Source: an uncultured Thermoleophilaceae bacterium (GTDB lineage Bacteria; Actinomycetota; Thermoleophilia; Solirubrobacterales; Thermoleophilaceae). From it: a stretch of 64,000 nucleotides of DNA. A program made the translations under genes and the position numbers. The notes under the pieces were generated by a model, which was not told the DNA's origin, made no database searches, and saw only the letters and a program-made list of their open reading frames with translations. This document shows positions 1,859 to 55,638 of the stretch, in pieces. How positions within the stretch are numbered: position 1 is the first letter of the stretch; every line of letters begins with the position of its first letter. The stretch covers positions 155,057 to 219,056 of the forward strand of contig CAWKDV010000003.1 in the NCBI GenBank assembly GCA_963848495.1, read 5' to 3'.

Positions 1859-4096
1859 CTAAAGAAGGTCGGCGATGCGCTGAGCCGCCTTGGCGGCGCC
1901 GTCGGCCTCGACATCGCGGTATGCGACTTCGCGGTCGATCTCCTCGGCGATCGCCGCGGCGATTTGCGCTGGCGGGCAGTCATCGAAGTCCATGCGCCTA
2001 CCCGCGCCGTAGCGCTCGAGCCGGTGGGCGACGTGAAAGTTCTGCTCGAAGTGGTGGCGCAGCGGGAAGTACAAGAACGGGCGCTTGTGCGCGGTGAGCT
2101 CCATCGCAGTGGTGAGTCCACCTTGCACCACCGCCAGGTCGCAGGCGCCGAGGTGGCGGTAGAGGTTGTGGACGTAAGGCACCACCTCGAGCCCGGCGTG
2201 CGAGGGCAGCCAGGCGGGGTCGATGCGCGGTCCCGCCACGACGATCATGCGTAAAGTCGGGACGCGCTCTCTGGCCTGGGGAAAGGCTGCGATGACGCGC
2301 CGGAGGAGGTCCGCGCCGACACCCGAACCTCCCACTGTGACGATGCAGACGCGCTCGTCGTCGCCGTATCCGAGCTGGGCGCGCAGGTTGCCGCGGCCCG
2401 CCGCGTCAGAGGGGTCGAAGCCAGTGACGTACCCCGTGAAGTCGAAGTGGCGCTCGGTCCAGTCGCGAATCGTCGGTAGCTGGGGCCCGAGCCGCTCCGG
2501 GACGATGTCCTCGGGGTTCCCGACGAACAGAGCCCTGTCGCGGACCTCAGGGTGGTGGGCGATGTGGTCGACCATGTCGGCGTTGTAGTCGGCGGTTAGG
2601 AACCGCTCGTGCTCGCTGCTGTCGCGCATCGGTAGGAAGCCGACGAAGTCGGTCAGCCACACGAATGGCGCGCGCTTCTCGCTCGGGTTCTCGTGCAGGT
2701 AGTAATCGAGCTCCCATGCCTCGTCCCCGATCCACAACTCGTAGCGTTGGTCGCGCACGACGTCGTGGAACAGCATGAAATTGGCGGCGAGGATCTCGTC
2801 CATCCGTCGCAGCGCCTGAAAGCAGTGCAGGTCGTGCTCGGCTGACTCCGATTCGATGTGGCGCGACTCGTTGGCCAGATGCCGGCTGGCGGGATGGATC
2901 TGCTCGCCTTCTGCTTCAAGCACGCGGGTTACCGGGTCCTGGGCGAGCCAGTCGATCTGGAGGTCGGGATGCAGACAGCGCAGCTCGCGGGCGATTGCGA
3001 CGTCTCGCTGCGCGTGGCCGAGTCCGATCGGCGAGGAGATGTATAGGGCGCGCGGGCGGCCGTCGGGCCGGTAGACGGTGGGGTCTGGCCGAGTCCGCCG
3101 TCGCCCGAAGGTGTCCTCGCAGAAGTCGCGTAGGGCAAGGTTGACCTGCACCGGCTTGCGAGCGTGCGGAAAGTGTCCGGCGCTCCTGACCAGCTCCAGC
3201 CTCCCTCGAGCTAGACGCGCCAGCGCGCGGCCGTCGCGCAATGGCGTGATCCGGTCGCGGTTACCGTGGATCACGGACACCGGACAGTCGATGCTCTCCG
3301 CAAGTGCGCGGAGCGTGCGGCGATCGCCGAGCGACTCCCCACGTGCCGTCGCGATCAGCGTTTCGGGATCGGTGTCCAGTGCCCATCCGACACCGTCCTC
3401 GATCGCCTTGGTCGAGTGCGGCTCAGGAAGACATCGCGAGATGAACCACTCAGCGAACTCCGAGTAATCCTGCCTCCAGTGCTCGGCGTTCATCCGCCCC
3501 CACCAGCGGTACACGCCGGGCTTGTCGAACGACCATGCGACGTGCGGATTCAGCAGCACCGACCAGTGGGACGGTGTGTACGGGAACATCGGAGCGATGA
3601 ACGCCGCGCCGGCGACTCGCTCGGGAGCCAGCCGCGCGAGCTCGAGCAGGAACTGCGCGCCCCGCGAGAGGCACACCATCACGGCGCGCGGCGTGCCGCT
3701 CGCGTCCATCACTGCCAGGCAATCGCGGGCGAACTCGACGGGCCGATAACGGTGTGGATCCCGGCAGCGATCCGAGCGTCCGTTGCCGAGGCCATCCATC
3801 GCCAGCACCCGAAAATGCCGCGCGACATACGGGATCTGCATCTTCCAATGGCGCGAATGAATCAGCGACCACGTCGGCATGAGGAAGACGGTCTCATCGC
3901 CGTCGCCATACACCTCGTAGAACAGTCGCTGACCGGCGCGCTCAACGAAGCCCTCCGCATCGGGACAACGAGCTCGGCTCTGCTCTCCCCCGCGACCAGT
4001 TGGAAAACTGGCGTCCCTTCTGGCAAGCGGCTCGGTGATCGCGTTCACGCCTAGCCTCCTCGAGTGAATTAAGTCAGCATCGCTCGCCGCGAGCAA
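1859..4096 (-). CDS. Fusion protein: N-terminal alpha/beta hydrolase plus C-terminal GT1/MGT-like glycosyltransferase
   Basis: Residues ~50-330 look like an alpha/beta-hydrolase fold (VFLMPTWSLIHSRHW, MDGLGNGRSD, SAGHFPH). Residues ~350-745 look like a GT-B glycosyltransferase (SSPIGLGHAQRDVAIAREL, VTVGGSGVG, QGGLTTAMEL). The exact start is uncertain. Confidence 0.7.
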   Translation of the reverse strand: MLAASDADLIHSRRLGVNAITEPLARRDASFPTGRGGEQSRARCPDAEGFVERAGQRLFYEVYGDGDETVFLMPTWSLIHSRHWKMQIPYVARHFRVLAMDGLGNGRSDRCRDPHRYRPVEFARDCLAVMDASGTPRAVMVCLSRGAQFLLELARLAPERVAGAAFIAPMFPYTPSHWSVLLNPHVAWSFDKPGVYRWWGRMNAEHWRQDYSEFAEWFISRCLPEPHSTKAIEDGVGWALDTDPETLIATARGESLGDRRTLRALAESIDCPVSVIHGNRDRITPLRDGRALARLARGRLELVRSAGHFPHARKPVQVNLALRDFCEDTFGRRRTRPDPTVYRPDGRPRALYISSPIGLGHAQRDVAIARELRCLHPDLQIDWLAQDPVTRVLEAEGEQIHPASRHLANESRHIESESAEHDLHCFQALRRMDEILAANFMLFHDVVRDQRYELWIGDEAWELDYYLHENPSEKRAPFVWLTDFVGFLPMRDSSEHERFLTADYNADMVDHIAHHPEVRDRALFVGNPEDIVPERLGPQLPTIRDWTERHFDFTGYVTGFDPSDAAGRGNLRAQLGYGDDERVCIVTVGGSGVGADLLRRVIAAFPQARERVPTLRMIVVAGPRIDPAWLPSHAGLEVVPYVHNLYRHLGACDLAVVQGGLTTAMELTAHKRPFLYFPLRHHFEQNFHVAHRLERYGAGRRMDFDDCPPAQIAAAIAEEIDREVAYRDVEADGAAKAAQRIADLL

Positions 4097-4243
4097 GTGG
4101 TACGACCGAGCCTACGACTGCCCGGTCGCCATCGCCTCAGGGGGGCACCTGGTGTTCTCGCCCAAACCCGGAGCGAAAGCGGGCCGCCTGTCATCGACTT
4201 GACTGTGAGCTCCAAAGGTCGCCCCCAACGGTAGCCTCGGCGG

Positions 4244-4821
4244 GTGTTCGACCACGTCGCCATCGCCGTCTCGGACCTGGCCGCGTCCGAGCGTTTCTAC
4301 CGCATCGTGCTCTCCGTGCTGGGCGTCGAGCCCAGCCACGCGGACACCGAGCTCGTCGAGTGGGAGGACTGGGACATCGGGCCCACCGACCGCGAGCACG
4401 CGGTGACCCGCGGCCTGCACATCGGTTTCCGCGCGCCGACCCGCGAGGCCGTGGACGCCTTCTGGCAGACGGGGATCGACGCCGGCTTCCGCGACGACGG
4501 CGCGCCCGGACCGCGCGCGATCTACGGACCCGACTACTACGGCGGCTTCCTGCTCGACCCGGACGGCAACAGCGCCGAGGCCGTGCACAACGAGCGGTCG
4601 AGCCCGGCGCCCCCCGGCCGAGTCGACCACCTGTGGATCCGCGTCGCCGACCTCGAGGCCTCCAAGCGCTTCTACGCGACGATCACGCCGCCGCGCTCGC
4701 CGCCGGATACGAGGACCACGGCGGGCCCGGCGAGCGCGCCGTCTACCACCCGGGCTACTACGGCGCGTTCGTCCTCGACCCCGACGGGCACAACGTCGAG
4801 GTCGTCAACCACAATTGCTGA
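4244..4821 (+). pseudogene. Two-domain VOC (glyoxalase/bleomycin-resistance) family gene with an out-of-frame internal deletion in domain 2
   Basis: Domain 1 is intact ([12 protein letters not shown]...[17 protein letters not shown]). Domain 2 starts in the same frame ([21 protein letters not shown]). Its conserved end ([40 protein letters not shown], stop 4821) is in the frame of the 4360 ORF. About 40-50 aa of the domain core are missing, and the frames switch near 4680-4690. Confidence 0.5.
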
Positions 4822-4828
4822 GCGTCGG

Positions 4829-5275
4829 CTACCTCGCGCAGGTCGTGCAGCTGCCGTGCAGCACGATCTCGTGGTCCGAGACCTCGAACGGCACCCGCTT
4901 GCTGAGGTCGTGGATCGTCTGCTCGAGCTCCTCGTCGGCGAACGGGACCAGGCGGCCGCAGCGGTCGCAGACGAGGTGGTGGTGATGGCCGTGCTCCCCG
5001 CGGCTGGCCTCGTAGCGCACCACGCCCTGGCCGGTCTCGACGCGCTGCACGAGCCGCAGCCGCTCGAGCTGGTCGAGGATGCGGTAGATGCTGGCGCGGC
5101 CCACGGCGCGGTCGCCGTCCCGCAGCGCGTCCTCGATGTCGAAGGCCGACAGCGCGCAGTGCTCCCGGTCGAGCAGCTCGAGTACGGCCTTGCGGGCCGC
5201 GCCGCGCCGGTAGCCGGCGGCCGCAAGCTGGCTCGCGGCGTGCTCCGCCCAGGTGTCCTCGCCGCTGTGCCTCAC
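4829..5275 (-). CDS. zur: Fur-family metalloregulator, probably Zur
   Basis: Fur-family winged helix plus HHHHLVC..C and C..C metal sites (GHHHHLVCDRCG, HGSCTTC). The GTG start overlaps the stop of the upstream permease (GTGA). It is the last gene of the ABC-3 metal uptake operon. Confidence 0.8.
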   Translation of the reverse strand: MRHSGEDTWAEHAASQLAAAGYRRGAARKAVLELLDREHCALSAFDIEDALRDGDRAVGRASIYRILDQLERLRLVQRVETGQGVVRYEASRGEHGHHHHLVCDRCGRLVPFADEELEQTIHDLSKRVPFEVSDHEIVLHGSCTTCAR

Positions 5276-6105
5276 GCGTTCGATTCTATGGTCGGGCGAC
5301 GGCGGCCTTTCAGGATCACCGCCGCCAGGTAGGCCGCCACGGCCACGAAGACGATCGCCGAGCTGGGCGGCAGCGGGTGGATCGCGTAGCTGAGCGTGAG
5401 GCCGATCCAGGTCGAGCCGACGGCGATCGCCGCCGAGGAGGCCAGGCCGGCCCACGGGTTCGCGCTGAGCAGGTAGGCGGCGCCGGCGGGCGCGGCCAGC
5501 AGGCCGAGCAGGAGCATCGCGCCGACAGCCTGCGTGCCCTCGCCGGCCACCACTCCGAGCAGCACCAGGAACGCGAGGCCGAGCCGCCGCACCGGCACCC
5601 CGCCGCCCTCGGCCACGCCCGGGTCGACCGAGGAGAACAGGAGCGGCCGCGCGATCAGGAGCAGCGCAACGACGGTCGCCGCGCCGATCGCCGCCGCCAG
5701 CCAGGCGTCGCCCGCCGACAGCCCGAAGATCGACCCGAAGAGCACACGCACGCCGGCCGCCCCGTTGCCGTTGCCGCTGGAGCTCGTGGTGAAGATCGAC
5801 AGGAAGAGCACGCCGAGGCCCAGCACCCAGGCGAACACCGAGCCGATCACGGCGTCGTCCGCCCGCGCCCGGTCGCCGGCGGCGCCCATGCCCAGGGCGA
5901 CCGCCAGGGTCGCGGCGAAGAGACCCAGGCGCAGGTCGATGCCGGCGGCCGCTGCCGCCAGCGCCCCGGTGAACGCAACGTGGCTGAGCGCGTCGCCCGC
6001 GAAGACCTGCGTGCGCAGCACGAGGAAATAGCCCACGAGGCCGGAGGCCAGCGCGATGAAGGTGCCGGCAAGGAACGCGTTGCGCATGAACTCGTGGCCG
6101 AGCAT
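5272..6105 (-). CDS. Metal ABC transporter permease (ABC-3 family, ZnuB/MntD-like)
   Basis: Polytopic hydrophobic protein of 277 aa, paralogous to the adjacent permease, in operon with a TroA-like binding protein and an ATPase. Confidence 0.85.
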   Translation of the reverse strand: MLGHEFMRNAFLAGTFIALASGLVGYFLVLRTQVFAGDALSHVAFTGALAAAAAGIDLRLGLFAATLAVALGMGAAGDRARADDAVIGSVFAWVLGLGVLFLSIFTTSSSGNGNGAAGVRVLFGSIFGLSAGDAWLAAAIGAATVVALLLIARPLLFSSVDPGVAEGGGVPVRRLGLAFLVLLGVVAGEGTQAVGAMLLLGLLAAPAGAAYLLSANPWAGLASSAAIAVGSTWIGLTLSYAIHPLPPSSAIVFVAVAAYLAAVILKGRRRPTIESNA

Positions 6106-6915
6106 CAGCGCCCCACGAGCGCCCGCCAGGCCCGCGCCAGCACGTAGGCGCCGAACGACAGCGACGTGACGTAGAAGCCGACGGGGTAGACGGAGTAGTA
6201 GGCGATCCAGAGGCCGATCCAGGTCACCGCCAGCGCGATCGCGAGCGATAGCGCCAGGCTGAGCCCGGGCCGCTGCGTGAGCACCTGGGCGGTGGCGGGC
6301 GGCGTGACGAGCAGGGCGAACACGAGCAGCGCGCCCGTGATCTGGCTGGTGGCGGCCACGGCCAGCCCCAGCAGAACGAGAAAGCCGGTGCCGAGCAGGG
6401 CGACCGGCACGCCGCCGGCGCCGGCCACCTCGCCATCCACGGAGGCGAAGAAGAGCGGGCGGCCGATGGCCACGAGCACGGCCACCACCACGGCCGCCGC
6501 CGCGGCGAGCACGAGCACCTGCCCGTCGGTGATGCCGAGGAAGGTGCCGAACAGGAGCGAGTCGAGCCCGTTCAGGAGCCCGTGGTAGAGGCCGACGAAC
6601 AGGAAGCCGCAGCCGAGCGCCACGGCCTGGACCGCGCCGATGGCGGCCGACTCCTCGCTGAGGCCGCCGGCGCCGCCGTCCCCCGAGACCCGCGAGAGCA
6701 CCAGCCCACCGGCCATGCAGGCGCCGAAGTAGCCCACGAAAGCGGGCGCGCCGGCCAGCGCCGCGGCCGCCGCGCCCGGGAACGCGATCACCGACAGGGT
6801 GTGACCCGCGAACGTCTGGCGGCGCACGACCATGAACCAGCCGATCAGCGAGGCGATCACAGCGACCAGCGTGCCGGCCAGCAGCGCGTTGACCATGAAG
6901 TGGTAGCGAAAGAGG

Positions 6916-51352: not shown

Positions 51353-51563
51353 TCAGCTGATCTTGTGCTTCCCCGCCTTCAGCACCTTCACGGTGCCGGA
51401 GCTCTCGGGCTTCGAGCAGCGGGAAGGTCTGGCCCACAGCCGGACCCTTGACCGGAACGCCCTGGACGGTGCCCTTCTTGTACGTCTGCTTGAACGTGTT
51501 GCCGGTGTTGCGGCCGAGCGTATAGCTCCCTTGTTCGAGTGGGCGCGTGAAGCGTAGCTGCAC
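51353..51563 (-). pseudogene. Small Lys-rich ORF whose coding signal changes frame near 51410
   Basis: G/C at third positions is strong in one frame for ...GSYTLGRNTGNTFKQTYKKGTVQGVPVKGPAVGQTFPLLE. It then moves to another frame for PESSGTVKVLKAGKHKIS-stop. No family recognised. Confidence 0.3.
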
Positions 51564-51633
51564 ACAGGTTGCATGCAAAGTGCCCGCAACGGGCCCCGCG
51601 CCGTGCGACCGGAACGCGGGGCCCGTGCTCCTC

Positions 51634-53023
51634 TTAGCGGGCAGGCCTTACGGGATGGTTCGAGACGAACAGCTCCTCGGCGTCGTAGCGCGACTTCACC
51701 TGCTGGAGCAGGCGGTAGGTCGTCGAGTCGAAGAGCTCGTCCGCGTCGGCGCTCGTCTCCGAGAAGTTGAAGTAGCCGTAGTCGGCCTCCCAGGGCTCGA
51801 GCGCCTGCTGGACGGCGCCCAGATCGCGCACGATCTGCTCGCCCAGCTCGGGGGTCATCGGCAGGCCGATGGCGAACATCGCGTAGTCGCCGTCGAGCGC
51901 CGACAGCGCGCCGTGCTCGGACGAGCGGCGGCCGAGCGCTCCGCCGAGCTGCCGCAGCTCCACGAACAGGAGCGACGAGCCGGACTCCGGCCCCGCCACG
52001 TCCACGATCGCCTCCACCGTCGCGGCGCTCAGCTCGGCCAGCATCATCCCGTCGCCGATGCCCGGCACCGGGTCCTCGGGGTCCTGGTGGAAGCGCGGCA
52101 GCTCGGAGGCCGGCAGCATGCCGAAGGTGTCGATCTCGGGACCGAGCTCGCGCAGCGGCCGGATCAGCTCGGCGCCGCTCGCCTCGTCGCCCTGGTAGAC
52201 GATCTCGACCACGGCGAGCGAGCGTCCGCGCAGCGGCTCGGGGATGTCGGGCAGCGGCGGCAGGCGCAGGATGCTTGTCGACGAGGTGGCGGTGTCGGGG
52301 GCGGTGTCGGCCCAGCGGCGGTAGCCGTGGAGAACGTCGGCGCTGCGCTCGATCGGGAAGATGAGCCAGCCGGCGTAGACCTCGGTGAGCGGGTAGAGGT
52401 CGAACTCGATCGCGGTCACCACGCCGAAGCTCCCGCCGCCGCCGCGCAGCGCCCAGAACACGTCGGAGTGGCGCTCGCGGTCGGCACGGATGTGCCGGCC
52501 CTGCGCGGTGACGAGCTCGATCGCCGTCACGCTGTTCGCCGCGAAGCCGTGGCTGCGCGCGAGCCAGCCGATGCCGCCGCCGAGCGTGTAGCCCACCACG
52601 CCGACGTTCGGCGAGGAGCCGTGCAGCGCCACGAGGCCGTGCTCGGCCGCGGGCTCGGTCACGTCGGTCCAGATCGCGCCGGCCTCGGCGCGCGCGCTGC
52701 CGCGCGACCGGGTCGATCTCCACGCCGCGCATCCGCTCGGTCTTCAGAAGAATGGTCTCGTCGAGCGCCTCCATCGCCACCGCGCCGTGCCCGGTGCCCT
52801 GCGCCGCGACACGCAGCCCGTTGTCCCGCGCGAACTTCACGATCTCGACGACGTCCTCGACCGACTCCACGAGCGCCACGGCGGCGGGCTCCTGGTCGGC
52901 TGCGAGGTTCCAGGCCTGCCGCGCTACGTCCCAGCTCTCGTCGACGGGGGTCACCACGTCGCCCGAGATGCGCGCGCGCAGGGCCTGGAGATCAGGCGCG
53001 GCGGTGAGGATCACAGGGTTCAT
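51634..53023 (-). pseudogene. FAD-binding PCMH-type (FAD_binding_4 / BBE-like) oxidoreductase interrupted by a 1-nt frameshift in a (GC)n run
   Basis: The N-terminal 110 aa are in the frame of the 53023 ORF (VVEIVKFARDNGLRVAAQGTGHG). The rest is in the frame of 51634-52662 (GYTLGGGIGWLARSHG, FWALRGGGGSFGVVT). The expected junction ...DPVAR.ARAEAGAIWTDVTEP is broken at GCGCGCGCGC around 52687-52697. Confidence 0.6.
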
Positions 53024-53225: not shown

Positions 53226-54155
53226 ATGAAGCTCGAGGGCATCCACCACGTAACTGCGATCACCGGCGACGCGCCCGCCAACGTCGACTTCTACACGCGC
53301 GTCTTGGGCCTGCGCCTGGTGAAGAAGACCGTCAACCAGGACGACCCCACCGTCTACCACCTCTTCTACGCCGACGAGAACGGCTCCGCCGGCTCCGACC
53401 TCACCTTCTTCGAGTACCCCGGCGCGATGCGCGGAACGGCGGGCGCGGGCATGGTGCATCGGGTGGCGTATCGGGTCGCCTCGCCCGAGGCGCTCGACTT
53501 CTGGGAGTTGCGCCTGCGCGGAGAGGGCATCGATGTCTCTCGCGGCGACGGCTCGCTCGTCTTCGCCGACCCCGAGGGCCTCGGCCTGGAGCTGGTCGTG
53601 GCGGACACGAGCGACGAGCCGCTGATCGCCGACCATCCCGAGATTCCCGCCGAGCTGGCCCTGCAGGGCTTCGATCACGTGCGCGCCTACACCGCCGATC
53701 CCGAGCGCAGCCGCGACCTGCTCGAGAACACCCTCGGCTTCGAGGACAGGGGCGACGGCAGCTTCGAGGCGCGCGGCGAGCGCCGCGGCGGCTTCATCCA
53801 CTACGACAGCTCGAGCGAGCGCGGCGTCCAGGGCGCGGGCACCGTCCACCACGTGGCCTGGGCCGCGCCGATGGACGAGCACGAGGCCTGGCGGCAGCGC
53901 GTGGCCGAGTCCGGCGCCCACCCCACGCCGGTGATCGACCGCTTCTACTTCCGCTCGATCTACTTCCGCGAGCCGAGCGGCGTGCTGTTCGAGATCGCCA
54001 CCCTCGGGCCGGGCTTCGCCACCGACGAGCCGGCCGAGCACCTGGGCGAGCGGCTGTCGCTGCCGCCGGCGTTCGAGCACCTGCGCGACCGCATCGAGCA
54101 GTCGGTCACCCCGCTGCCCGACCCGCGCGCGGGCTGGCGCGCAAAGACCGGTTAG
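53226..54155 (+). CDS. Ring-cleaving dioxygenase-like VOC family protein (two-domain)
   Basis: MKLEGIHHVTAITGDAPANVDFYTRVLGLRLVKKTVNQDDPTVYHLFY is the typical N-terminus of this family. ATG preceded by GGGAGGAAGG. Confidence 0.8.
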   Translation: MKLEGIHHVTAITGDAPANVDFYTRVLGLRLVKKTVNQDDPTVYHLFYADENGSAGSDLTFFEYPGAMRGTAGAGMVHRVAYRVASPEALDFWELRLRGEGIDVSRGDGSLVFADPEGLGLELVVADTSDEPLIADHPEIPAELALQGFDHVRAYTADPERSRDLLENTLGFEDRGDGSFEARGERRGGFIHYDSSSERGVQGAGTVHHVAWAAPMDEHEAWRQRVAESGAHPTPVIDRFYFRSIYFREPSGVLFEIATLGPGFATDEPAEHLGERLSLPPAFEHLRDRIEQSVTPLPDPRAGWRAKTG

Positions 54156-54165
54156 GGTTTCCCAA

Positions 54166-54331
54166 GCGACGACGCGAGCCCGAGTCGGCGCCGCGCGTCC
54201 CGGACGCGCGACGCTTCTCCGGGGTTACCCCGGGGGAAGGTGTGTCACCTAGGCATCGCATCGCATGCGCGCCACTGCTGCTCCGCGCAGCTAAGCGCAC
54301 GCACGACAGGAGCAGTCGGGCCGCTCGTCGC
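54166..54331 (+). ncRNA. Candidate structured RNA upstream of the reverse transcriptase (retron msr/msd-like placement, unproven)
   Basis: Long-range inverted repeats GCGACGACGCGAGCCCGA (54166-54183) and TCGGGCCGCTCGTCGC (54316-54331) give about 15 bp of pairing. They enclose two local hairpins (54192-54210, 54214-54239). A G follows the 5' repeat. The region ends 5 nt before the RT ORF. Confidence 0.3.
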
Positions 54332-54336
54332 ATGCC

Positions 54337-55638
54337 TTGAGCTACAGCCGCGTCAAGCGTGAGCAGATCGCCGCCGCGCTGGCGTCGGCCTTCCTGGCCG
54401 GCATGTGGGAGGTCGAGGAGATGGTGGCTCGCGGCGAGCAGACGCTCGAGCCGGCGCCGCCCTGGCTGCGGCGGCTGGCGCTGGGCGTGCACGCGAGCTA
54501 CCCGCAGATGCCAACCGACCGGCCGCGGGAGCTCGAGCGGCGCATCGCGCTGGCGCTGCGCGATCTCGTCACCCCCGCGCGCCCGCCGAAGATCCGCCAC
54601 TGGCTCCTGTTCGAGCAGGAGATGGCGCCGATGCGCTGGCCGGTGCCGGCGATCGCCACGAGCGGCGACCTCGCCGATCTCCTCGGCCTGACAGCCGGCG
54701 AGCTCGAGTGGCTGGCGGACCCGCGCGGGCTCGAGCGTACCGTCACCGCCGAGCGACTCCGCAACTACCGCTACGCCTGGCTGCCGCGCGCTAGCGGGCC
54801 GCCGCGGCTGATCGAGCGGCCCAAGGCGCGCCTCAAGGCGATCCAGCGCCGCCTCCTGCACGAGCTGCTCGACCTCGTGCCTTCGCACGACGCGGCCCAC
54901 GGCTTCCGTCGCGGCTTCTCCGCCCGCACCGCGGCGAGCCACCACACCGGACAGCCGGCCGTGCTGCGCTTCGACCTCGAGGACTTCTTCGCGTCGGTCG
55001 GGGCGGGCCGCGTCTACGGCATCTTCAGGACGATCGGCTATCCGGAGACGGTCGCCCACGCGCTCACAGGGCTGTGCACGAACGTGGCGCCGCGCGACGT
55101 CACGGCCGGCGCGCCGTATCTGCTCGCGAGGCGACTCGCGACACCACATCTCCCCCAGGGTGCCCCCACGTCGCCGGCGCTTGCCAACCTCTGCGCGTTC
55201 TCGCTCGATTGTCGGCTGCACGGGCTCGCGCTGTCCCTCGGCGCGCGCTACACGCGCTACGCCGACGACCTCTCGTTCTCGGGAGGCAAGCACCTGCTGC
55301 GCCGCGCGCCGCAGATCACCGAGACCGTTGCCGAGATCGCGCGCGAGGAGGGCTTCGCGCTGAACCGCGGCAAGACGCGCGTCACGCCTCGCTCGCAACG
55401 CCAGCTCGTCTGCGGCGTGGTGGTGAACGAGCGGCCCAACGCGGTGCGCCGCGAATACGACCTCCTCAAGGCCACGCTCCACAACGCGGCGCGGCGCGGT
55501 CCCGCGGCCGAGAACCGCGCCGGCGTGGCCGACTTCCGGGCACACCTGCTCGGCCGCATCTCCTGGGTCGAGTCGCTCAACCCCGCCCGCGGCGCCAGGC
55601 TGCGGGCGGCGTTCGACGCGGTCGACTGGGACGCCTAG
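54337..55638 (+). CDS. Retron-type reverse transcriptase with an N-terminal extension of about 100 aa
   Basis: Colinear RT motifs: PRLIERPKARLKAIQ, HGFRRGFSARTAASHH, VLRFDLEDFFASV, LPQGAPTSPALANL, YTRYADDLSFS, GFALNRGKTRV, QLVCGVVVNE, RREYDLLKATLHNA. Start is uncertain: TTG 54337, ATG 54403, or ATG 54421 with GGGAGG 8 nt upstream. Confidence 0.85.
   Translation: MSYSRVKREQIAAALASAFLAGMWEVEEMVARGEQTLEPAPPWLRRLALGVHASYPQMPTDRPRELERRIALALRDLVTPARPPKIRHWLLFEQEMAPMRWPVPAIATSGDLADLLGLTAGELEWLADPRGLERTVTAERLRNYRYAWLPRASGPPRLIERPKARLKAIQRRLLHELLDLVPSHDAAHGFRRGFSARTAASHHTGQPAVLRFDLEDFFASVGAGRVYGIFRTIGYPETVAHALTGLCTNVAPRDVTAGAPYLLARRLATPHLPQGAPTSPALANLCAFSLDCRLHGLALSLGARYTRYADDLSFSGGKHLLRRAPQITETVAEIAREEGFALNRGKTRVTPRSQRQLVCGVVVNERPNAVRREYDLLKATLHNAARRGPAAENRAGVADFRAHLLGRISWVESLNPARGARLRAAFDAVDWDA

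What the first reader, a model, noticed from the sequence alone, without database searches (positions are those of the whole stretch)
54337..55638. Solitary retron-type reverse transcriptase with an unexplained N-terminal extension and no neighbouring effector
- **RT core:** The ORF carries the full ordered set of retron-style RT blocks: PRLIERPKARLKAIQ, HGFRRGFSARTAASHH (NAxxH-like), FDLEDFF, LPQGAPTSPALANL, YTRYADDLSFS, GFALNRGKT, QLVCGVVVNE (VTG-like) and RREYDLLKATLHNA. These are colinear with retron Ec86 RT as I remember it.
- **Missing effector:** Characterised retrons and DRT systems pair the RT with an effector such as an ATPase, HNH, TIR, NDT or TM protein. Here the RT sits between a ring-cleaving dioxygenase-like gene and a convergent DJ-1/PfpI gene whose stop overlaps the RT stop. 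That leaves no room for an effector. I see no integrase or island signature either.
- **Extension:** About 100 residues precede the usual retron RT start (MSYSRVKREQIAAALASAFLAGMWEVEEMVARGEQTLEPAPPWLRRLALGVH...). This stretch has coding-like G/C at third positions, but I recognise no motif in it.
- **Possible readings:** a fused novel effector or regulatory domain, an RT that works with a trans-encoded partner, or a non-defence role.
Basis: partly seen in the sequence, partly recalled or inferred. Interest (0 to 1): 0.8.

Follow-up and report, generated by a model that had tools for sequence, protein, structure and literature searches.

The report
Stand-alone retron: promoter, ncRNA and RT

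Summary
The ORF 54337-55638 (+, 433 aa) is a real, intact retron-type RT. It has a long closing a1/a2 helix, two opposing conserved G residues, an almost invariant GC hairpin and a 3' long hairpin. It is present upstream of the RT in 23 of 24 metagenome and genome loci and in 2 plasmid-record loci. Covariation is strong: 95.7% of cells are paired against at most 47% in slid controls, and 24 of 37 pairs show compensatory changes. A TANNNT -10-like element sits 11-14 nt upstream of a1 in 20 of 23 loci.

No protein-coding neighbour is conserved across 25 loci, and no defence gene flanks the RT in the window. The ~100-aa N-terminal extension is translated (GC3 0.96), conserved family-wide and covered by two PADLOC retron RT profiles. 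It occurs only fused to this RT family, and it is a four-helix domain with no structural match.

This fits the stand-alone (msr-msd)-RT cassettes of retron RT clade 11 described by Mestre et al. 2020. The missing effector and the extension are therefore family traits, not anomalies. The function remains unknown. Verdict: new member of a known kind, of moderate interest.

The parts
54153..54158 (+). Putative -10 promoter hexamer TAGGGT (TANNNT type), 12 nt upstream of a1. It overlaps the stop codon of the upstream dioxygenase gene.
   Evidence: A TANNNT hexamer lies 11-14 nt upstream of a1 in 20 of 23 loci, while the surrounding sequence is not conserved. Its function as a promoter is inferred. 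The E. coli-type sigma-70 scan finds nothing here.
54166..54331 (+). Conserved structured ncRNA with retron msr-msd-like architecture. The whole element runs from the first base of a1 to the last base of a2.
   Evidence: Fold z-score is -3.8. The covariance model hit is 54157-54344, 147 bits, E 4e-29, and there is one hit per locus directly upstream of the RT in 23 of 24 loci, including 5 held-out loci. Weaker hits in Burkholderia and Tsukamurella end exactly at the RT start. Pair counts: 95.7% paired against at most 47% in slid controls, 24 of 37 pairs with compensatory changes, 0 of 500 shuffles reaching the observed values (on the independent MAFFT alignment). Codon-position GC is flat at 0.68-0.73, so the stretch is non-coding. 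There is no Rfam match.
54166..54183 (+). a1, the 5' arm of the closing helix (GCGACGACGCGAGCCCGA).
   Evidence: It pairs with 54316-54331. The outer helix is 96.9% paired with 7 of 10 pairs compensatory. The inner CCGA/UCGG helix is 95.7% paired and was not part of the trained model.
54184..54184 (+). Conserved G immediately 3' of a1, the candidate branching (priming) guanosine.
   Evidence: The G follows CCGA (CCAA in L012) in the aligned loci, read from the alignments. It opposes the conserved G at 54315. This matches the 'two opposing G residues' of retron consensus structures (Mestre 2020 Fig. 2 legend). The priming role is inferred, not shown.
54187..54215 (+). Hairpin 1. Its sequence varies between loci but the structure is conserved (msr-like stem-loop).
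   Evidence: All 3 basal pairs covary and are 87% paired. The window-specific stem is 13 nt at 92% complementarity (I3).
54216..54236 (+). Hairpin 2, a nearly invariant 9-bp GC hairpin (UCUCCGGGG-UUA-CCCCGGGGG). It is the likely RT recognition element.
   Evidence: It occurs once per locus, always upstream of the RT, and is 98% paired. Independent compensatory changes are seen in Actinoplanes (C-G to U-A), in L021/L024, and in Burkholderia and Tsukamurella. The recognition role is inferred.
54238..54250 (+). Small hairpin 3 (AGGUG-UGU-CACCU).
   Evidence: It appears in the window's minimum-free-energy fold. Other loci have CCUG...CAGG at the same place, seen by eye. It was not tested formally.
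54263..54302 (+). 3' long interrupted hairpin, the msd-like presumed template for cDNA.
   Evidence: Helices 5 and 6 are 94-97% paired, with 8 of 11 pairs compensatory, including many G-C to C-G swaps. The template role is inferred from retron architecture.
54296..54319 (+). Conserved sequence box CGCACGCACGACAGGAGCAGUCGG, running into a2. It includes the opposing G at 54315.
   Evidence: It is conserved across loci. Gene callers often mistranslate it as 'AHARQEQSG'.
54316..54331 (+). a2, the 3' arm of the closing helix (UCGGGCCGCUCGUCGC). It ends 5 nt before the RT start codon.
54337..55638 (+). Retron-type reverse transcriptase, 433 aa, TTG start.
   Evidence: ORF, Pfam, PADLOC and NCBIfam results are. 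The AlphaFold2 model has pLDDT 92.8 and pTM 0.85. The top Foldseek and PDB sequence matches are all retron RTs.
54337..54636 (+). Family-specific N-terminal domain (aa 1-100): four helices (5-20, 26-36, 44-54, 63-76), pI about 10.
   Evidence: GC3 is 0.96 in frame. Conserved motifs are LAxAFLxGxW and DRPRELxxF. All 17 sequences inspected out of the 92 hits among 1.84 billion representative proteins are N-termini of RTs or RT fragments. The domain model has pLDDT 87 and no significant match in PDB or BFVD.
54796..55392 (+). RT catalytic core (Pfam RVT_1, aa 154-352). It includes region X TAASH (54928-54942) and YADD (55258-55269). Region Y VCG lies just downstream at 55408-55416.

Best explanation
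The locus is a compact, self-contained retron of the stand-alone type: its own promoter, an msr-msd-like ncRNA and the RT, with no effector gene.

**Proposed mechanism**
1. Transcription starts a few bases before a1, from a -10 element at 54153-54158 (inferred). It yields one RNA carrying the ncRNA (54166-54331) and the RT message.
2. The ncRNA folds with its ends paired (a1/a2), which places two conserved G residues opposite each other (shown computationally).
3. The RT, probably helped by its basic N-terminal four-helix domain, recognises the invariant GC hairpin (inferred).
4. The RT primes from the 2'-OH of G54184 and copies the 3' hairpin region backwards from about 54315. This would give a short branched msDNA of roughly 50-70 nt (inferred from canonical retron biochemistry, not shown here).

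**Family placement:** It matches what Mestre et al. 2020 call retron RT clade 11, which is mostly actinobacterial and has no associated protein cluster.

**Biological role:** The role is not established. The setting is chromosomal among metabolic genes, synteny with a 73%-identical relative is shared, and the family was not found in the phage or viral contig collections I searched. I therefore lean towards a vertically inherited RNP whose output is the msDNA-RT complex itself, rather than a mobile toxin-based abortive-infection module.
For: **RT identity**
- PADLOC RT_other scores 567 bits over aa 5-432 and RT_outgroup ('retron') 535 bits over aa 8-431. The next best is RT_XIII at 301 bits, matching only from aa 102.
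- All top structural and sequence matches in the PDB are retron RTs.
- YADD and the invariant H and G of regions X and Y are kept.

**ncRNA**
- Each of 23 of 24 loci has one hit directly upstream of the RT on the same strand, including 5 held-out loci.
- Burkholderia and Tsukamurella have weaker hits that end at the RT start.
- 95.7% of cells are paired against at most 47% in slid controls, 24 of 37 pairs are compensatory, and 0 of 500 shuffles reach the observed values.
- The junction CCGA-G ... G-UCGG is conserved.

**Promoter:** TANNNT lies at -11 to -14 in 20 of 23 loci.

**No effector**
- An all-against-all ORF comparison of 19 loci finds only the RT conserved.
- Pfam-annotated neighbourhoods differ between lineages.
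- The downstream ORFs are unrelated to each other.
- There are no PADLOC hits in the window flanks.

**Vertical, chromosomal setting**
- L001 shares the flanking genes (dioxygenase 89% identical, AraC 80%, DJ-1 77%, RT 72.5%, ncRNA 88.6% nt).
- G+C is flat across the locus.
- Viral contigs and phage records hold only other retron types, at most 35% identical and lacking the N-terminal domain.

**Literature:** Clade 11 is described as stand-alone and mostly actinobacterial, with its own ncRNA structures (PMC7736814; bioRxiv 10.64898/2026.05.14.725207).
Against: - **No experimental data:** I have no evidence that this element or any close relative makes msDNA. The Khan et al. census reports only 'intermediate production from the rest' of the clades and does not single out clade 11.
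- **Clade assignment is inferred:** I equate PADLOC RT_outgroup/RT_other with Mestre clade 11 from parallel naming, taxonomy and architecture. It was not shown by placement in the reference tree, and I could not run the published clade11-A and -B covariance models.
- **Short msd-like hairpin:** The msd-like hairpin is short and interrupted compared with many retrons.
- **No ribosome-binding site:** There is no obvious ribosome-binding site at the usual distance before the TTG start.
- **Trans effector not excluded:** An effector encoded elsewhere in the genome cannot be ruled out from a 64-kb window.
- **Disrupted relatives:** Two relatives have disrupted RTs (L014 an in-frame stop, L017 a frameshift), so the element is dispensable in some lineages.
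Confidence: 0.8

Rival explanations
1. The N-terminal four-helix domain is a fused effector or sensor. The protein would then be a single-gene RT-effector system, like the RT-TIR, RT-protease and RT-Toprim retrons but with the extra domain at the N-terminus.
For: - The domain is conserved under selection (GC3 0.96, invariant L20, G22, W24, R32, W43, Y55, D61, R64, L66).
- It is found only in this RT family.
- No other partner gene exists.
- Fused effectors are known in types I-C, XI and XII (PMC7736814).
Against: - It is only about 95 aa of four helices. It has no structural similarity to any toxin, nuclease, protease or NTPase (best Foldseek E about 1, TM at most 0.44) and no Pfam, PADLOC or NCBIfam domain.
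- Its pI of about 10 fits nucleic-acid binding better.
- It diverges beyond BLASTP recognition in Burkholderia and Tsukamurella relatives whose RT core is still 46-52% identical and whose ncRNA is retained. That pattern suits an accessory RNA-contact or scaffold module that co-evolves with its RNA.
Confidence: 0.12
2. It is a canonical defence retron whose effector is encoded elsewhere in the genome and acts in trans.
For: - Characterised retrons need an effector.
- The window covers only 64 kb of a contig of at least 672 kb.
- Mestre et al. suggest that the Ec107-like stand-alone branch may have lost its associated protein.
Against: - No co-localised partner is seen in any of about 25 loci from several phyla. 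Known defence systems are almost always co-localised.
- The family is absent from the viral, phage and mobile contexts searched.
- The neighbours are ordinary metabolic genes, with no defence island.
Confidence: 0.1
3. It is not a retron in mechanism. The ncRNA would be a template for a DRT2-like or DRT9-like product, such as rolling-circle cDNA encoding a hidden ORF or homopolymer synthesis.
For: - Single-gene RT plus upstream ncRNA is also the layout of DRT2 and related systems. Their structures appear lower in the Foldseek list.
Against: - The internal length of the RNA varies from 130 to 140 nt with no mod-3 preference (9/8/6).
- The RT scores as retron by hundreds of bits, against 28.8 bits for Drt2 where the cut-off is 390.
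- The a1/a2 helix with opposing G residues is the retron priming geometry.
Confidence: 0.03
4. It is a decaying relic with no current function.
For: - L014 has an in-frame stop and the weakest ncRNA score, and L017 has a frameshift.
- The neighbouring FAD-oxidase gene in the window is itself frameshifted.
Against: - The window ORF is intact with all catalytic motifs.
- More than 100 full-length homologues at 57-80% identity show strong coding constraint.
- Compensatory changes in the RNA show selection on the structure.
Confidence: 0.03

Closest known systems
Retron RT clade 11 of Mestre et al. 2020 (stand-alone (msr-msd)-RT cassettes; 'clade11-A/-B' in the 2026 SPIRE survey; probably PADLOC RT_outgroup/RT_other)
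   Same: - It has a retron-type RT with regions X and Y.
- A cognate structured ncRNA lies directly upstream.
- No associated protein cluster is present.
- Hosts are predominantly actinobacterial, with some Pseudomonadota and others.
- There are signs of vertical inheritance.
- The PADLOC profiles match over the full length, including the N-terminus.
   Different: - No difference was demonstrated.
- Formal tree placement and the published clade11-A and -B covariance models could not be run here.
- The two papers I read do not discuss the N-terminal domain: a term search found no occurrence of 'N-terminal extension' in one or 'N-terminal' in the other.
Retron-Eco5 (Ec107)-like stand-alone retrons (branch of clade 2)
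   Same: It is also an ncRNA-RT cassette with no recurrent accessory gene.
   Different: - It belongs to a different RT clade. PADLOC RT_Ec107-like scores 176 bits against 535-567 bits for the best profiles, and matches only from aa 137.
- It has no N-terminal domain.
- Its hosts are mainly Gammaproteobacteria and Bacillota.
Type XIII retrons (clade 10; RT plus HEAT/ARM-repeat and accessory proteins)
   Same: It is the closest typed RT profile (RT_XIII, 301 bits, aa 102-428). It also shows vertical-inheritance signals according to Mestre et al.
   Different: Type XIII has dedicated accessory proteins, and none is present here. The first ~100 aa of this protein have no counterpart in the RT_XIII profile.
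Retron-Eco1 (Ec86), the structural reference (PDB 7v9u/7v9x)
   Same: - The RT fold is the same (Foldseek E 1.5e-19, target TM 0.80; 28% identity).
- The ncRNA logic is the same: a1/a2, a priming G, msr hairpins and an msd stem.
   Different: - Ec86 works with an NDT-type effector, and none is present here.
- Ec86 RT is about 320 aa and lacks the N-terminal four-helix domain.
- Ec86 is prophage-associated, whereas this element sits among chromosomal metabolic genes.

Membership tests
Retron (general definition) | RT with the retron-specific region X (NAxxH, H most conserved) and region Y (VTG, G most conserved) and an intact YxDD | tested here: met
   TAASH (aa 198-202), VCG (aa 358-360) and YADD (aa 308-311) are present. 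The region X H, G360 and YADD are invariant in 52 homologues. The N and the T of the textbook motifs are substituted.
Retron (general definition) | Contiguous ncRNA with terminal inverted repeats (a1/a2), opposing G residues, msr hairpins and an msd stem-loop, upstream of the RT on the same strand | tested here: met
   The element spans 54166-54331. It co-occurs with the RT in 23 of 24 loci plus 2 plasmid-record loci.
Retron (general definition) | Production of msDNA, a branched RNA-DNA molecule primed from the 2'-OH of a G | not testable with these tools
   This needs expression followed by PAGE, DBR1 treatment and sequencing.
Retron (general definition) | Closest relatives by sequence and fold are experimentally validated retron RTs | tested here: met
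   All 14 PDB sequence matches and the top 18 Foldseek matches are retron RTs.
Mestre 2020 retron RT clade 11 (stand-alone) | Phylogenetic placement within clade 11 of the 1,928-RT reference tree | not tested
   The reference sequences are not on hand. As a proxy, PADLOC RT_other (567 bits) and RT_outgroup (535 bits) match over the full length, against 301 bits for the next profile. Equating these profiles with clade 11 is an inference.
Mestre 2020 retron RT clade 11 (stand-alone) | No specifically associated protein cluster or fused effector domain | tested here: met
   Only the RT is conserved across 19 loci. Annotated neighbourhoods differ between lineages. No domain other than RVT_1 is found.
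Mestre 2020 retron RT clade 11 (stand-alone) | Mostly actinobacterial hosts | tested here: met
   Hosts include Solirubrobacterales, Thermoleophilaceae, Conexibacteraceae, Actinoplanes, Blastococcus, Tsukamurella and Dietzia. A few are Proteobacteria, Planctomycetota or Verrucomicrobia.
Mestre 2020 retron RT clade 11 (stand-alone) | ncRNA matches the published clade11-A or clade11-B covariance model | not testable with these tools
   The models and their supplementary files are not held. Rfam has no matching family.
Typed tripartite retrons I-XIII | An effector gene adjacent to the RT, or an effector domain fused to it | tested here: not met
NCBIfam retron St85 family RT (NF038233) | Score at or above the curated cut-off of 235 bits | tested here: not met
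   The score is 173.5 bits.
DRT/UG/Abi defence RTs | Best profile match to a DRT, UG or Abi family | tested here: not met
   Drt2 scores 28.8 bits against a cut-off of 390. The top 25 PADLOC matches are all retron RT profiles.
Group II intron RT/maturase | Score at or above the TIGR04416 cut-off, and an intron RNA context | tested here: not met
   The score is 39.1 bits against a cut-off of 300. There is no Rfam group II intron hit in the window.

The most novel reading that the evidence does not exclude
Effector-less clade-11 retrons are not abortive-infection modules at all. Instead they would be domesticated, vertically inherited RNPs in Thermoleophilia and other Actinomycetota. Their clade-specific N-terminal helical domain would couple the msDNA-RT complex to a host process such as DNA repair, regulation or stress response, or would act as a new kind of built-in sensor or effector. 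This locus, with precisely mapped promoter, ncRNA and domain boundaries, would be a clean entry point to test that idea.
Probability: 0.2. Interest if true: 0.7.

Novelty: new member of a known kind. Interest (0 to 1): 0.35.

Why it matters
Characterised retrons work by holding a toxic effector in check. A large and well conserved lineage that keeps the RT and the ncRNA but never has an effector asks what a retron is for when it has no toxin. Mestre et al. raised this question in 2020, and I found no experimental answer in the literature I could search.

This locus adds no new category. It does give a fully delimited example: a -10 element, a 166-nt ncRNA with a candidate priming G, an RT, and a 100-aa N-terminal domain that is exclusive to the family and has no structural relative. 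That makes the question directly testable. For annotation, it also shows that gene callers often start these RTs too far upstream and translate part of the ncRNA.

Tried and rejected
- **Hidden conserved partner gene:** The same-strand downstream ORFs in L021 (251 aa) and L022 (243 aa) looked promising. They are unrelated to each other and absent elsewhere. AlkZ-like genes lie upstream in only 3 loci.
- **DRT2-like rolling-circle template:** There is no mod-3 length constraint.
- **N-terminal domain as a known fold:** Foldseek against PDB and BFVD gives nothing significant. Pfam, NCBIfam and PADLOC show no extra domain.
- **N-terminal domain free-standing or in other architectures:** Every one of the 17 hits I inspected, out of 92 among 1.84 billion representatives, is an RT or an RT fragment.
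- **Rfam:** There are no hits at gathering threshold in the whole window. The permissive scan of the element gives only chance-level hits.
- **E. coli-type promoter and terminator scan:** It finds nothing. It is uninformative at 72% G+C.
- **Mobile or viral origin:** No member of the family is found in IMG/VR or in phage records. 'Plasmid' hits are megaplasmids, chromids or chromosome-like records.
- **Literature on PADLOC RT_outgroup/RT_other:** The search was a dead end. The Mestre supplementary files are not held.
- **Source organism of the window:** No exact-protein contig is on record and no name is given.
- **My own error:** My first hand-typed structure string was off by one column. It was corrected.
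Full report
**1. Observation**

Several results identify it as a retron-type RT.
- Pfam RVT_1 matches aa 154-352 at E 2e-17.
- phmmer against all PDB sequences returns 14 matches at E up to 1e-5, and all are retron RTs. The best is Ec86, with aa 153-384 aligned to Ec86 residues 56-270 at E 1e-32.
- A high-confidence AlphaFold2 model (pLDDT 92.8, pTM 0.85) finds retron RTs as its top 18 Foldseek matches: Ec86, Eco2, Eco7, Ec78, Ec83 and Eco8. Group II intron, DGR and DRT RTs follow.
- The catalytic YADD (aa 308-311) is intact. The region X variant TAASH and the region Y variant VCG keep their conserved H and G in 52 aligned homologues.

The neighbours are as described. A glyoxalase/dioxygenase-family gene ends at 54155. 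A convergent DJ-1/PfpI gene has a stop codon that overlaps the RT stop. Further out lie GcvT-like, MTHFR, FAD-oxidase, GlxA/AraC, MFS, PNPOx and thioesterase genes. None of the nine flanking proteins hits a PADLOC defence model. G+C is flat across the locus.

**2.

The 181 bp between the dioxygenase stop and the RT start is not spacer.
- **Fold:** It folds far better than shuffled sequence (z = -3.8). A long helix closes the structure, and its 3' arm ends 5 nt before the TTG.
- **Related loci:** I fetched 18 loci from one-genome-per-species contigs and 6 more through exact-protein look-ups.
- **Alignment:** Aligning the upstream regions showed a nearly invariant hairpin CUCUCCGGGG-YNA-CCCCGGGGA, a conserved box GCACGCACGAC..GAGCAGUCGG, and complementary terminal arms.
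- **Consensus structure:** RNAalifold predicts a closing helix, two 5' hairpins and a longer 3' hairpin.
- **Pair counts, MAFFT alignment (not fitted to any structure):** 94.6% of cells are paired against at most 52% when partners are slid by 1-3 columns. 21 of 34 pairs show changes on both sides. No shuffle out of 500 reaches the observed values.
- **Covariance model:** A model built from this alignment finds exactly one strong hit per locus (60-171 bits), always directly upstream of the RT on the same strand. This holds in 23 of 24 loci, including five that were not used for training. The window hit is 54157-54344 at 147 bits.
- **Pair counts, 23-sequence alignment:** An extra inner helix (CCGA/UCGG) that was not in the model is 95.7% paired and has compensatory variants. 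Overall, 24 of 37 pairs are compensatory.
- **More distant relatives:** In Burkholderia and Tsukamurella (RT core 46-52% identical) the best hit of the model again ends at the RT start codon. The 'invariant' hairpin is kept there through different base pairs.

The closing helix is flanked on its inner side by a conserved G on each strand (G54184 and G54315). This is the 'two opposing G residues' geometry of retron msr-msd transcripts (Mestre et al. 2020, Fig. 2 legend).

Codon-position G+C is flat (0.68-0.73) across the element. It jumps to GC3 = 0.96 from 54337 onwards.

A TANNNT hexamer lies 11-14 nt upstream of a1 in 20 of 23 loci, in otherwise unconserved sequence. In the window it is TAGGGT at 54153-54158. 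That is the expected position for a -10 element firing at the start of the RNA. Its function as a promoter is inferred.

Rfam has no matching family.

**3. The 'missing effector' is a family trait**

An all-against-all comparison of every ORF of at least 90 aa in 19 loci finds only the RT, and shadow ORFs overlapping it, conserved in more than five loci. The Pfam-annotated neighbourhoods differ between lineages:

| Loci | Neighbours |
|---|---|
| L019, L020 | AlkZ-like upstream, 6PGD downstream |
| L021, L024 | Luciferase-like (Bac_luciferase) oxidoreductase upstream |
| L022 | ABC transporter upstream |
| L105 (Burkholderia) | Osa protein upstream, H-NS downstream |
| L106 (Tsukamurella) | HTH regulator upstream, HAD hydrolase downstream, with polA and rpsA nearby |

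Two same-strand downstream ORFs of similar size, in L021 and L022, looked like a possible hidden partner. They are unrelated to each other.

The closest relative is L001, with a 73%-identical RT. It shares the window's flanking genes at comparable divergence: dioxygenase 89%, AraC 80%, DJ-1 77%, and ncRNA 88.6% at the nucleotide level. This points to vertical descent in that lineage.

IMG/VR contigs and phage records hold only other retron types, at most 35% identical and matching from about residue 100.

**4. The N-terminal extension is also a family trait, but of unknown fold and role**

- **Conservation:** More than 100 homologues of about 445 aa cover 94-100% of the query at 57-80% identity. 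Stop-to-stop alignments show conservation starting within a few codons of the TTG, with motifs LAxAFLxGxW, DRPRELxxF and WxVP.
- **Profile coverage:** PADLOC's RT_other and RT_outgroup ('retron') profiles align to aa 5-432 and 8-431. The typed retron profiles start at about aa 102-140.
- **Distribution:** Searching aa 1-99 alone against 1.84 billion representative proteins gives 92 hits, always at a protein's N-terminus. All 17 sequences I inspected continue into the RT or are truncated or frameshifted RT fragments. On this evidence the domain exists only in this RT family.
- **Structure:** It is predicted with confidence (pLDDT 87 when modelled alone) as four helices. It has no significant match in PDB or BFVD (best E about 1).
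- **Properties:** It is basic, with a pI of about 10. It diverges faster than the RT core, because the Burkholderia and Tsukamurella N-termini cannot be aligned by BLASTP.

I read it as an accessory module that contacts nucleic acid or acts as a scaffold and co-evolves with the ncRNA. I do not read it as an enzymatic effector. That reading is an inference.

**5. Comparison with what is known**

Mestre et al. 2020 (PMC7736814) divide retron RTs into 11 clades. They state the following about clade 11:
[quoted passage not shown] - It has its own ncRNA consensus structures.

A 2026 survey (bioRxiv 10.64898/2026.05.14.725207) treats clade 11 (A and B by ncRNA model) and the Ec107-like branch as the two untyped retron lineages. 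PADLOC's two extra profiles, RT_outgroup and RT_Ec107-like, parallel this split.

Everything tested here fits clade 11. Formal tree placement and the published covariance models were not available to me, so membership is well supported but not proven.

I found no experimental study of this clade. The Khan et al. census reports RT-DNA production by clade without singling it out.

**6. Mechanism and rivals**

The best-supported reading (confidence about 0.8) is a self-contained retron.
1. A promoter drives one transcript.
2. The ncRNA folds with a1/a2 paired.
3. The RT recognises the conserved hairpin(s).
4. The RT primes from G54184 and copies the 3' hairpin into a short msDNA.

| Status | Element |
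|---|---|
| Shown computationally | The RNA structure, its obligate linkage to the RT, the RT's retron identity, the absence of a conserved partner |
| Inferred | Promoter function, the priming G, the extent of the msDNA, the role of the N-terminal domain, the biological output |

Rival readings:

| Rival | Confidence | Main reason |
|---|---|---|
| N-terminal domain as fused effector or sensor | 0.12 | No fold support |
| Effector encoded in trans | 0.10 | Cannot be excluded from one window, but atypical for defence systems |
| DRT2-like templating | 0.03 | No triplet constraint on RNA length; retron geometry |
| Decaying relic | 0.03 | Contradicted by coding and structural constraint, although L014 and L017 carry disrupted copies |

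**7. Verdict**

The framing as a puzzling solitary RT is not. This is a new member of a described, effector-less retron lineage, complete with its ncRNA.

The residual interest lies in the unresolved biology of that lineage and in the orphan N-terminal domain. This locus defines both precisely enough to test. Interest is 0.35.

Noticed in passing
window ~51353-53023 (- strand), junction near 52680-52709: The FAD-linked oxidase gene upstream is split over two reading frames. A homologue from L006 aligns first in frame -2 and then in frame -3. This is either a frameshifted pseudogene or an assembly error.
   Followed up: partly
L014 6421-6423 (Blastococcus carthaginiensis): The RT homologue has an in-frame TGA inside the conserved RLRxYRY motif ('RHYR*RAV'). 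Its upstream ncRNA has the weakest model score of all loci (60 bits). It may be a decaying copy.
   Followed up: partly
L017 ~6143-6162: The RT homologue switches reading frame (tblastn frames 1 then 2), and its N-terminal domain is not recovered. This is a frameshift or a long-read assembly error.
   Followed up: partly
L008 4571-5752; L019 5496-6725; L020 6447-7679: An AlkZ-like gene (PF06224, DNA glycosylase family) lies just upstream of the ncRNA-RT cassette in three loci, in either orientation. It is not seen in the other loci. This may be shared synteny or a weak association with DNA repair.
   Followed up: partly
window 54153-54158 and 55635-55638: The cassette is packed very tightly. 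The -10-like TAGGGT overlaps the dioxygenase stop codon (TAG, 54153-54155), and the RT stop codon overlaps the stop codon of the convergent DJ-1/PfpI gene.
   Followed up: no
window 54294-54336; proteins P0121, P0122, P0136, P0139: Gene callers often start homologues of this RT too far upstream. They then translate the conserved ncRNA box into strings such as 'AHARQEQSG' or 'RTHDRSSR'. This is a recurrent annotation artefact in the family.
   Followed up: partly
window 54308-54337: There is no Shine-Dalgarno-like sequence at the usual 5-10 nt before the TTG start. The only AGGAG (54308-54312) is 25 nt upstream and lies inside the conserved ncRNA box next to a2. Folding of the ncRNA might therefore influence RT translation.
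   Followed up: no
L105 (Burkholderia sp. FXe9 megaplasmid) 3776-6606: In the Burkholderia relative, the cassette lies between an 'Osa protein' gene and an H-NS family gene. This context differs from the metabolic neighbourhoods seen in actinobacteria.
   Followed up: no
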